Source: Promethearchaeota archaeon
GTDB lineage: Archaea > Asgardarchaeota > Lokiarchaeia > Sigyniarchaeales > SOKP01
Direction: 5' to 3'
NCBI GenBank assembly: GCA_016839555.1
Contig: JAEOUA010000007.1
Span: forward strand, 1 to 64,000
Length of the DNA stretch: 64,000 nucleotides
The notes beneath the pieces were generated by a model, which was given only the letters and a program-made list of their open reading frames with translations, had not been told where the DNA came from and did not search any database. Below are positions 52,329 to 53,549 of this stretch, in pieces. Every line of letters begins with the position of its first letter. Position 1 is the stretch's first letter. A program made the position numbers and the translations under genes.

Positions 52329-53549
52329 TCAAATTATTTTTAATTTTTTCCATTCTTTTAACTTCTCTTTTGGGTATTTTAGAAGATCACAATAAATTTT
52401 TTCATTATGTTGTCCAAATGTAGGTCCTGGTGCTAATACTTCTCCAGGTGTCTCTGAAAATCGTATTAATCTATTTGGGATTGTTGCTTTTTCAACATTA
52501 TATTCGGAGAAATCAAACTGATCACATAACATCCCCCTTGCTCTTAAATTAGGATGATTATAAACCTCATACATGCTTAACGACTCTCCACATGGAATTC
52601 TCTCTGCTTCAAGAAGTTTAATTGCTTCTTTAGAGGTGTAAGATTTTGTCCATTTTTCAATAATATCATCCAATAAATCTACATAATTAAATCTCTTTAT
52701 AGGGTTAGAAAATCGAGGATCTTTTACTAATTCTGGTTTCTGGAGAATATTCTCACATAATCTTTTAAATTGCCGCTCGGTTAACGTAGTCATCACAATT
52801 AATCCATCTTTAGTATGATATTGATTATAAATTGGTAAAAATTTCACCCCTAAATCTAATTTTTTCGCCATTGGCATAAATTCTCTTGCCTGGGCTCGCA
52901 TATTAATAGCAAACATTATATCATGCATAGAAATGTCTAAAAATTGACCTTTACCAGTTTTTTCTCTATAATAAAGTGCCTGACTAATACCGATTGCTGC
53001 AACGTGACCTGCAGAGTAATCAGCTACAGGTAATTTTGGTGGTCCTTCTTTTAAATCCAACGTATCTAATATCGCTGCTTCTGCTTGAATTATAATATCG
53101 AAAGCGGTTTTCTTTGTATATCTTTCCAACCCCTCATTTCCATATCCAGATATTTTACAATAAATTAATCGAGGATTTAACTCCTTTAAAACATCATATC
53201 CAAGTCCCCATCTTTCCATTGTGCCCTTGACGAAATTCTCTACTATAATATCCGATTTTATTACAAGGTTTTTAAAGATTTCTTGTGCCTGTTGTTCCCG
53301 TAAATTTAAGGATATTGATTTTTTCCCACGGTTTAATATTGAAAATAAGGGAAAGATAGTTTTATCATACATAGAAAAGTAGCGAAAGGCTTCCCCGAAA
53401 GGAGGAGGATTTAGTATAACCACCAAATGCGGTTATATTTCTACCTTTATAACTTCCGCTCCTTGATCTGCGAAGAAAATGCTAGTCCACGGGCCACTAA
53501 TAAACTGACTACAATCTAATAATCTTATATTTTCAAAAATTTTGGGCAT
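52329..53549 (-). CDS. CaiB/BaiF family III CoA-transferase interrupted by a 30-nt in-frame stop-containing insertion
   Basis: ATG 53549 gives MPKIFENIRLLDCSQFISGPWTSIFFADQGAEVIKVE-I*PHLVVILN-PPPFGE, in the same frame as the 53426 ORF (NRGKKS, DIIVENF). Confidence 0.9.
53409..53438 (-). other. Candidate bulge-helix-bulge-like mRNA intron (30 nt)
   Basis: GTAG-AA|A-TATAACCGC-ATTTG-GTGGTTATA-CTAA-AT|C; excision gives KVEPPPFGE. Confidence 0.55.

What the first reader, a model, noticed from the sequence alone, without database searches (positions are those of the whole stretch)
53409..53438. Candidate BHB-type intron in a protein-coding gene (CoA-transferase)
Seen: the gene is intact except for a 30-nt insert containing TAA inside the conserved KVE-PP motif. 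The RNA folds as GUAG / AAA bulge / 9-bp stem (UAUAACCGC:GUGGUUAUA) / CUAA / AUC bulge. Established: archaeal EndA cuts after the second nt of each 3-nt bulge flanking a 4-bp helix, and mRNA introns are known mainly from crenarchaeal cbf5. Applying that rule removes exactly 30 nt and restores KVEPPPFGE in a 396-aa protein. A target-site-duplication model (AAAT) removes 28 nt and breaks the frame. Caveats: the central helix has one G-A mismatch and the exon stem is short, so this is a relaxed BHB/BHL motif. If real, it is mRNA splicing of a metabolic gene in an Asgard-like archaeon.
Basis: partly seen in the sequence, partly recalled or inferred. Interest (0 to 1): 0.88.

Follow-up and report, generated by a model that had tools for sequence, protein, structure and literature searches.

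The report
tRNA-type mini-intron in Asgard CoA-transferase gene
A CoA-transferase gene of a Loki-type Asgard archaeon is broken by a 30-base insert shaped like a tRNA intron, and 25 related copies carry a co-varying insert at the same spot, so the mRNA almost certainly has to be cut and re-joined by the tRNA-splicing enzymes, which papers document inside only one other archaeal protein gene (cbf5).

Summary
The family III CoA-transferase gene (window 52329-53549, minus strand) carries a 30-nt insert at 53409-53438. The insert has an in-frame TAA and sits between the codons for KVE and PPPFGE. Intron-less relatives of 395-396 aa read KVEPPPFGE.

- 25 distinct alleles from related Asgard genomes carry a 30- or 31-nt insert at exactly this site.
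- The 31-nt inserts shift the frame, yet both exons stay under protein-level selection.
- All alleles fold as a 4-bp helix, a 3-nt bulge, an intron hairpin, the helix partner and a second 3-nt bulge. Compensatory changes occur in the central helix and in 7 of 9 hairpin pairs.
- Cutting after the second bulge nucleotide restores the frame in every allele.
- The outer exon helix is only 1-2 bp, so this is a relaxed (HBh'-type) motif.
- The genome encodes two EndA paralogues, one a crenarchaeal-type catalytic subunit, and RtcB.

No RNA data could be obtained, so splicing itself is inferred. Papers I could search report coding-sequence BHB introns only for crenarchaeal cbf5. This scan has already noted the same phenomenon on other DNA, in this gene family, and on this same stretch read from another window. 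I classify it as a new member of a known kind.

The parts
52329..53549 (-). Whole CaiB/BaiF-type (family III) CoA-transferase gene, from the start ATG at 53549 to the stop codon included
   Evidence: Pfam PF02515 E 6e-88 over residues 6-382 of the read-through translation.
53439..53549 (-). Exon 1, 37 codons (M1 to E37, ending ...AEVIKVE)
   Evidence: Among 25 insert-bearing alleles its last 22 codons vary mostly at third codon positions: 5, 4 and 19 variable columns at positions 1, 2 and 3.
53409..53438 (-). 30-nt insert, the predicted BHB (HBh'-type) intron. Its in-frame TAA lies at 53435-53433.
52329..53408 (-). Exon 2, 359 codons plus stop, starting PPPFGEAFR
   Evidence: The first 237-240 codons held of exon 2 are open in 23 of the 24 surveyed insert-bearing alleles. 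The one exception is a 1-nt loss in an A-run.
53441..53444 (-). 5' strand of the central 4-bp helix H (GUAG, exon 1, codons Val-Glu)
   Evidence: Pairs with CUAA at 53411-53414. Across 24 alleles 94.8% of cells pair, and A-U becomes G-C in two alleles.
53438..53440 (-). 5' bulge AAA. The predicted cut falls between 53439 and 53438.
   Evidence: Geometry read. The cut after the second bulge nucleotide restores the frame.
53415..53437 (-). Intron hairpin h': 9-bp stem UAUAACCGC/GUGGUUAUA with loop AUUUG
   Evidence: centroid structure. 7 of 9 pairs show double changes among alleles. The closest relative keeps 9 bp with a different sequence.
53411..53414 (-). 3' strand of the central helix H (CUAA, intron). 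Its last base gives a G.A mismatch in this allele.
   Evidence: That position is U in 16 of the 24 aligned alleles, C in 2 and non-pairing (A) in 5, all opposite G; the 24th allele has U opposite A.
53408..53410 (-). 3' bulge AUC. The predicted cut falls between 53409 and 53408.

Best explanation
The 30 nt at 53409-53438 are an archaeal bulge-helix-bulge intron inside the coding sequence of a family III CoA-transferase mRNA. In the transcript, the exon-1 bases GUAG pair with the intron bases CUAA to form a 4-bp helix. On one strand a 3-nt bulge (AAA) lies between this helix and a 9-bp intron hairpin. On the other strand a 3-nt bulge (AUC) follows the helix. The outer exon helix is nearly absent, so this is a relaxed HBh' form. 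The host's two-subunit splicing endonuclease EndA would cut after the second nucleotide of each bulge. RtcB would then join GUAGAA to CCUCCU and probably circularise the 30-mer. The spliced message encodes the 396-aa enzyme with the KVEPPPFGE motif. An unspliced message stops after 38 codons. Shown here: the insert, its exact homology-defined borders, its conservation and co-variation in relatives, selection on both exons, and the presence of EndA and RtcB genes. Inferred: cleavage by EndA, ligation by RtcB, and that splicing happens in the cell.
For: (1) Intron-less relatives read KVEPPPFGE, and the window has exactly 10 extra codons with a TAA. (2) 25 distinct alleles carry an insert at the same nucleotide: 7 of 30 nt and 18 of 31 nt. 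A 31-nt insert puts exon 2 in another frame, so it cannot be read through. (3) Exon 1 of insert-bearing alleles varies mainly at third codon positions (5/4/19 variable columns). The held part of exon 2 (237-240 codons) is open in 23 of the 24 surveyed alleles. (4) For the named structure on 24 alleles, 84% of cells pair against 30-53% for slid controls. 8 pairs have changes on both sides, and 0 of 500 shuffles reach the observed values. The central helix pairs in 94.8% of cells, with GUAG:CUAN becoming GUGG:CCAU in two alleles (G150, G274) and AUAG:CUAU in one. (5) The BHB cutting rule lands on the homology-defined borders in every allele. (6) The Val-Glu codons are GTAGAA in 20 of 24 insert-bearing alleles but in 5 of 25 intron-less ones, which use GTT, ATT, GTC, GTG or TTG. 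This is as expected if exon bases must pair with the intron. (7) The closest relative (91% protein identity) has a 30-nt insert only 57% identical that still forms a 9-bp stem. (8) The genome has two EndA paralogues. One of 198 aa is most like the catalytic subunit of the Aeropyrum heterotetramer (3P1Z_B, E 5e-40) and aligns without gaps through the loop region. RtcB is also present. Asgard EndA is reported as (alpha-beta)2 with the L1 loop linked to relaxed motifs (PMC5829648). (9) The hairpin is single-copy in the genome. (10) A second gene of this genome is split in the same style: a 31-nt insert between the Glycos_trans_3N and Glycos_transf_3 domains.
Against: No RNA evidence was obtained. 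The window's central helix has a G.A mismatch. The outer exon helix is 1-2 bp, and its candidate pairs are no more frequent than in intron-less alleles, so the motif is not canonical hBHBh'. The single-sequence fold is not better than shuffles (z -1.07). RNAalifold on its own recovers only the top of the hairpin. The alleles are related, so co-variation counts overstate the number of independent events.
Confidence: 0.88

Rival explanations
1. The insert is removed from the RNA at these borders, but by something other than EndA/RtcB, for example another endonuclease that recognises the hairpin or a self-cleaving activity.
For: No cleavage assay was possible. The motif lacks the outer exon helix of the canonical substrate.
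Against: The conserved features are the ones EndA reads: a 4-bp helix between two 3-nt bulges on opposite strands, with borders after the second bulge nucleotide. 30 nt is too small for a known ribozyme intron. The genome has EndA with a crenarchaeal-type catalytic subunit.
Confidence: 0.04
2. Nothing is removed. The gene is expressed as a 38-aa N-terminal peptide plus a roughly 365-aa protein started inside or after the insert (TTG at 53426 here, ATT in others), as current gene calls imply.
For: Gene callers produce 363-367-aa products (P0002, P0065, P0082, P0073).
Against: This does not explain the co-varying RNA structure, the constraint on the GTAG codons, or the exact common border. The supposed starts differ between alleles (TTG, ATT or none nearby; callers fall back to Met further in, giving 342-348 aa). 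Exon 1 encodes the first 37 residues of the Pfam domain and stays conserved.
Confidence: 0.04
3. The ribosome skips the insert by translational bypass or programmed frameshift, as in phage T4 gene 60.
For: A stop codon follows shortly after the take-off point and a hairpin follows it, which superficially resembles gene 60 (own knowledge).
Against: Bypass needs matching take-off and landing codons. The take-off codon is GAA or GAG, while the last insert codon is AAT, TAA, CAT, AAA, TAT, ATA, TAG or TAC. A single-step frameshift cannot pass the in-frame stops of the 30-nt alleles. The pairing between exon GUAG and intron CUAN has no role in bypass.
Confidence: 0.02
4. The gene is a decaying pseudogene, or the insert is an assembly artefact.
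For: The reading frame is interrupted by a stop. The genome is a metagenome-type assembly (12 contigs, 92% complete, 6% contamination).
Against: Independent assemblies of 25 alleles show an insert at the same nucleotide. Both exons are under purifying selection. This is the only copy of this subfamily in the genome; the other match is a 41%-identical paralogue.
Confidence: 0.02

Closest known systems
BHB intron in the cbf5 (pseudouridine synthase) pre-mRNA of Crenarchaeota (Watanabe 2002; Yoshinari 2006; Yokobori 2009, PMC2738675)
   Same: A short intron lies inside a protein-coding sequence. The BHB is unconventional or relaxed, and the cuts fall between the second and third bulge residues. 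A hetero-oligomeric EndA is the proposed enzyme. The intron is present or absent among relatives, with lineage-specific loss. Gene callers mis-predict the gene (PMC2738675).
   Different: The gene differs (a metabolic CoA-transferase, not an RNA-modification enzyme) and so does the phylum (Asgard, Loki-type family). The insert lies in the conserved KVE-PP motif, not at the catalytic Asp codon. Splicing is not yet shown at RNA level here, whereas cbf5 splicing and EndA cleavage were shown experimentally.
Archaeal tRNA introns with relaxed (HBh') BHB motifs (Marck and Grosjean 2003; Asgard tRNA census, bioRxiv 10.64898/2026.10.13.758758)
   Same: The geometry, the size class (about 15-45 nt) and the presumed enzymes are the same. 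This genome's tRNA genes are also heavily interrupted: ARAGORN of 28 with an anticodon-loop intron of 8-43 nt.
   Different: The exon context is an mRNA, so no tRNA body helps position the enzyme. The exon half of the motif is constrained by codons.
BHB intron in the 5' UTR of Haloferax volcanii HVO_1309 (PMC7714728)
   Same: An mRNA is the substrate of the tRNA splicing endonuclease. In Haloferax this was confirmed by circRNA-seq and in vitro cleavage.
   Different: That intron is 46 nt and lies in the untranslated leader, so its removal does not rebuild a reading frame.
Unconventional splicing of HAC1/XBP1 mRNA in eukaryotes (Ire1 cleavage, tRNA-ligase or RtcB joining; own knowledge)
   Same: A small intron (26 nt in XBP1) in a coding sequence is removed without the spliceosome. 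Removal is by endonuclease cuts in stem-loops plus a tRNA-type ligase, and it changes the reading frame.
   Different: The endonuclease (Ire1) and the recognition motif differ, and that splicing is regulated by stress. No evidence of regulation was found here, and no homology is implied.

Membership tests
Archaeal BHB (EndA-dependent) intron | [quoted passage not shown] | tested here: met
   GUAG / AAA / hairpin / CUAA / AUC in the window, with a G.A at the outermost pair. Across 24 alleles the helix pairs in 94.8% of cells and shows compensatory A-U to G-C changes.
Archaeal BHB (EndA-dependent) intron | Cuts after the second nucleotide of each bulge give the functional product | tested here: met
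   The rule removes 30 or 31 nt and restores ...KVE|PPPFGE in frame in all 25 alleles. The borders coincide with those of intron-less relatives.
Archaeal BHB (EndA-dependent) intron | Flanking helices: h' (intron side) and h (exon-exon side) of the canonical hBHBh' motif | tested here: inconclusive
   h' is present: 9 bp here, with 7 of 9 pairs showing double changes. h is reduced to one invariant G-C plus an A-N pair kept in 13 of 24 alleles. Longer-range exon pairs are no commoner than in intron-less alleles. This fits the relaxed HBh' class, not the strict motif.
Archaeal BHB (EndA-dependent) intron | Host encodes a splicing endonuclease able to cut relaxed motifs, and an RNA ligase | tested here: met
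   Two PF01974 genes of 198 and 208 aa. The first is most like the catalytic chain of the Aeropyrum (alpha-beta)2 enzyme and aligns ungapped through the loop region, including the Lys at chain position 44. RtcB matches at E 3e-169. The link between that loop and relaxed substrates comes from PMC5829648 and my own recall of the Lys44 work.
Archaeal BHB (EndA-dependent) intron | Spliced RNA, circular intron, or in vitro cleavage demonstrated | not testable with these tools
Exact spliced-junction patterns gave 0 hits in metagenome contigs.
Translational bypass element (T4 gene 60 type) | Matching take-off and landing codons flanking the skipped stretch | tested here: not met
   The take-off codon is GAA or GAG. 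The codon before the landing site varies (AAT, TAA, CAT, AAA, TAT, ATA, TAG, TAC) and never matches.
Miniature mobile element (MITE) or repeat insertion | Multiple copies in the genome, terminal inverted repeats with a target-site duplication | tested here: not met
   One copy in the window and in the 3.74-Mb genome at up to 3 mismatches. The same site is occupied in many genera by diverged sequences.

The most novel reading that the evidence does not exclude
EndA/RtcB splicing of mRNAs is a routine, possibly regulated layer of gene expression in Loki-type Asgard archaea. Unspliced CoA-transferase message ends after 38 codons, so the level of splicing would gate enzyme production. This would resemble HAC1/XBP1 in eukaryotes, which also uses an RtcB-type ligation. 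Intron loss and gain at this site would be ongoing; the gene tree forces at least 8 changes.
Probability: 0.15. Interest if true: 0.9.

Novelty: new member of a known kind. Interest (0 to 1): 0.78.

Why it matters
If spliced as predicted, a metabolic gene in the closest archaeal relatives of eukaryotes needs mRNA splicing to be expressed. That extends a mechanism documented in coding sequence only for crenarchaeal cbf5 (PMC2738675, PMC7714728).

There is a practical consequence for annotation. Of the 120 closest database homologues, 56 are listed as N-terminally short proteins (296-385 aa). All seven that I traced to DNA (P0062, P0064, P0065, P0073, P0077, P0082, P0103) are split by this insert. 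Gene catalogues of Asgard genomes therefore under-call intact genes.

The site also offers a compact substrate of about 45 nt for testing the substrate range of Asgard EndA. Close pairs of intron-bearing and intron-less alleles could be used to study how such introns are lost or gained.

Tried and rejected
Exact 48-nt spliced-junction patterns, one for the window allele and one for its closest relative (L057), gave no hit in metagenome contigs. This is uninformative rather than negative.

2. Outer exon helix or long-range 'clamp'. The candidate pairs A17-N59, N6-N68 and A9-N65 are kept in 54%, 75% and 37% of insert-bearing alleles. In intron-less alleles the figures are 64%, 68% and 56%. There is no sign of selection, so I dropped this idea.

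3. Homology-free genome-wide scan for BHB geometry plus restoration of an open frame. Three versions were tried. True geometry gave 1005 and then 100 candidates. Controls with a splice site shifted by 1-2 nt gave 995-1118 and 81-102. Adjacent genes and terminator hairpins swamp the signal, so I give no count of introns per genome. The scan did recover the present insert as the best-paired candidate on the first 100 kb of its contig. It also surfaced one further convincing case.

4. Single-sequence folding. The z-score of -1.07 is not significant. RNAalifold alone recovers only the hairpin top. The structural argument rests on counting pairs for the named structure.

5. Synteny as a test of orthology. 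gatA lies next door only in the window's nearest relatives, all of them insert-bearing. Synteny therefore cannot confirm that the intron-less copy in a same-genus genome (G276) is a strict orthologue. On the gene tree it falls in another clade.

6. Repeat or MITE, pseudogene, bypass and two-piece protein readings were considered and rejected (see the rival explanations).

Full report
**What is in the sequence.** The gene lies on the minus strand from the ATG at 53549 to the stop at 52329-52331. Read in one frame it gives MPKIF...GAEVIKVE-I-stop-PHLVVILN-PPPFGEAFR.... The read-through translation matches Pfam CoA_transf_3 from residue 6 to 382 (E 6e-88). The closest full-length homologues are 395-396 aa and are named CaiB/BaiF CoA-transferases of Promethearchaeota, Lokiarchaeota or Hodarchaeota. 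They read GAEVIKVEPPPFGEAFR with no extra residues. The window therefore has exactly 30 extra nucleotides, 53438..53409, with TAA at 53435-53433. The hairpin inside them occurs once in the window and once in the whole 3.74-Mb assembly, even allowing 3 mismatches.

**The same site is occupied in many relatives.** In the homologue list, 56 of the 120 entries are N-terminally short.
- I fetched the DNA of five such entries (P0082, P0065, P0073, P0064, P0062). Each of the seven has the missing N-terminus just upstream, separated from PPPFGE by 30 or 31 nt.
- I searched 400 genomes of the phylum with the first 120 residues. Orthologue-grade matches fell into two classes: 25 distinct loci with no insert, and loci with an insert at the identical nucleotide.
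- Counting the closest relative L057, there are 25 distinct insert-bearing alleles: 7 of 30 nt and 18 of 31 nt.
- All insert-bearing genomes from that survey belong to the window's own family. Orthologues from other families of the order, class and phylum have no insert.
- A 31-nt insert puts the two halves in different frames, so read-through or a tolerated insertion is excluded for most alleles.
- All seven 30-nt alleles have an in-frame stop within the first three insert codons.

**Both halves stay under protein-level selection.** In the last 22 codons of exon 1, the variable alignment columns among the 25 alleles number 5, 4 and 19 at codon positions 1, 2 and 3. The peptide is nearly invariant. 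The 237-240 codons of exon 2 that were held are open in 23 of the 24 surveyed alleles. The exception, L049, has lost one A from an A-run, which is probably an assembly or sequencing slip. The window's genome has no other copy of this subfamily; the second match is a 41%-identical paralogue.

**RNA structure.** All alleles fit one scheme: exon GUAG, a 3-nt bulge (AAA, AAU or AGA), an intron hairpin, intron CUAN, a 3-nt bulge (such as AAC or AUC), then exon.
- I counted pairs for this named structure on a MAFFT alignment of 24 alleles. 84.2% of cells form standard pairs, against 30-53% when the 3' partners are slid by 1-3 columns.
- 8 of 15 pairs have changes on both sides, in 31 cells. None of 500 shuffles reaches any observed measure.
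- The central helix pairs in 94.8% of cells. Its third pair is A-U in 22 alleles and G-C in two (G150 and G274, GUGG with CCAU). Its first pair is G-U in 16 alleles, G-C in 2, A-U in 1 and unpaired in 5. The unpaired state is the window's own G.A.
- The hairpin has double changes in 7 of 9 pairs.
- The closest relative (91% protein identity, same gatA and PIN/MazE neighbours) has an insert only 57% identical to the window's. Its exons are 82-84% identical, and its insert still forms a 9-bp stem.
- Caveat: the sequences are related, so these counts do not equal independent events. RNAalifold alone finds only the top of the hairpin. The window's 76-nt fold is not better than shuffles.

**The cutting rule predicts the borders.** Archaeal EndA cuts after the second nucleotide of each bulge (Marck and Grosjean 2003; restated in PMC2738675 and in bioRxiv 10.64898/2026.10.13.758758). 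Applied to each allele, the rule removes 30 or 31 nt and joins ...GUAGAA to CCN CCN CCN. This is the junction that intron-less relatives have.

Very close pairs on the gene tree differ by the presence or exact absence of the insert: L012 with L020, L047 with L015, and L039 with L016.

The exon half of the motif also leaves a mark on codon choice. Val-Glu is GTAGAA in 20 of 24 insert-bearing alleles, and the exceptions are compensated or conservative. It is GTAGAA in only 5 of 25 intron-less alleles, which otherwise use GTT, ATT, GTC, GTG or TTG.

**What is not canonical.** The outer exon-exon helix is one invariant G-C plus an A-N pair kept in 13 of 24 alleles. Proposed longer-range pairs are no more frequent than in intron-less alleles. 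The cbf5 introns also mostly have an unconventional BHB, cut by the hetero-oligomeric enzyme (PMC2738675).

**Machinery.** The genome has two PF01974 genes.
- The 198-aa product is most like the catalytic chains of the crenarchaeal heterotetramers (3P1Z_B at E 5e-40, 3AJV_B, 2CV8, 2ZYZ_B). It aligns without gaps through the N-terminal loop region, including the Lys at chain position 44.
- The 208-aa product is a more divergent paralogue. This fits the (alpha-beta)2 architecture with the L1 loop reported for Asgard archaea and linked to relaxed substrates (PMC5829648).
- RtcB is present.
- ARAGORN finds only 28 tRNA genes, 17 of them with an anticodon-loop intron. This agrees with reports that Asgard tRNA genes are heavily interrupted.

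**History.** A maximum-likelihood tree was built from 702 exon-2 columns of 49 alleles. It interleaves insert-bearing and intron-less copies: parsimony needs 15 changes, and well-supported branches alone force at least 8. The inserts share position and sequence features, and they are confined to one family. I therefore infer one early gain followed by repeated exact losses. Gain and loss cannot be separated without a rooted species tree, and paralogy or transfer is not excluded. One example is G276, a same-genus genome whose copy falls in another clade and lacks the gatA neighbour.

**Rivals.**
- A two-piece protein does not explain the co-varying structure, the codon constraint or the variable pseudo-starts.
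- Translational bypass lacks matching take-off and landing codons.
- A pseudogene or assembly artefact is contradicted by 25 independent alleles under selection.
- An RNA-level removal by another enzyme cannot be excluded without a biochemical test. However, the conserved features are those EndA reads.

**RNA evidence.** None was obtained.

**Novelty.** In the papers I could search, coding-sequence BHB introns are confirmed only for cbf5. The one other mRNA substrate is a 5' UTR intron in Haloferax (PMC2738675, PMC7714728; searches). No paper found describes such introns in Asgard protein genes.

Earlier notes of this scan report the same phenomenon in many Asgard genomes, in this genome, in orthologues of this very gene, and on this same stretch read from another window. 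I treated those as leads. The orthologue cases were re-derived here (L002 is the 'EFYLVHSD-stop' allele). My own scan independently surfaced one further gene of this genome, split in the same style between Glycos_trans_3N and Glycos_transf_3.

I file this as a new member of a known kind, with high confidence (0.88) that it is a spliced intron and lower certainty about any regulatory role.

Noticed in passing
L012, L031, L032, L035, L037, L039, L043, L045, L046, L049 (orthologous loci); the site corresponds to window about 53505, where the window has no insert: Ten orthologues carry a second insert of 32-35 nt in exon 1, between ...LDCS and (Q)FISGPW, splitting the Gln codon. In the two I read by eye (L012, L035) a GCUC:GAGU or GCUC:GGGU helix with cuts two bases beyond it restores C|AA. 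L031 and L032 have this insert but lack the KVE|PP one.
   Followed up: partly
G000 contig C12:205678-205708 (+), locus L061:679-709: A 31-nt insert with helix UAGU:GCUA, bulges ACA and AAa, and a perfect 9-bp hairpin. It separates an ORF ending in Glycos_trans_3N (profile 2-62 of 63) from an ORF starting at position 11 of Glycos_transf_3 plus PYNP_C. This looks like a nucleoside or AMP phosphorylase-type gene split the same way.
   Followed up: partly
G000 contig C6:79408-79438 (+), about 15.4 kb beyond the window end; locus L063:209-239: A 31-nt insert with a textbook motif: UCCA / AGG / 9-bp stem GAAUUCUAC:GUAGAAUUC / UGGA / AAA. It sits between ...YDNEAFMNTGIQ and SGGTPPYASTTT in different frames, downstream of a PorA-like ORF. 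Pfam did not name either flanking piece, and the downstream ORF ends in a GDG...DIG motif, so the gene structure here is more complex than one intron.
   Followed up: partly
G000 contig C10:139518-139548 (-), locus L062: A 31-nt insert with a 9-bp hairpin and helix GCCG:CGGA (outer mismatch, as in the window) joins a 51-codon and a 150-codon open frame. Neither piece has a Pfam match, so it is unconfirmed.
   Followed up: partly
whole genome G000: ARAGORN finds only 28 tRNA genes, 17 with an anticodon-loop intron of 8-43 nt. The low total suggests that many tRNA genes carry introns at other positions and are missed.
   Followed up: no
L049 (G192:C102), exon 2 codon 80: The only insert-bearing allele with a broken exon 2 has lost one A from an AAAA run relative to its close relative L046. 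This is probably an assembly or sequencing slip or a recent frameshift, not an intron.
   Followed up: yes
database entries P0002, P0062, P0064, P0065, P0073, P0077, P0082, P0103: Public gene calls for insert-bearing alleles are N-terminally truncated (296-367 aa, some started at ATT or TTG), with a separate 38-45-aa 'CoA_transf_3' mini-ORF upstream. The family is systematically mis-annotated.
   Followed up: partly
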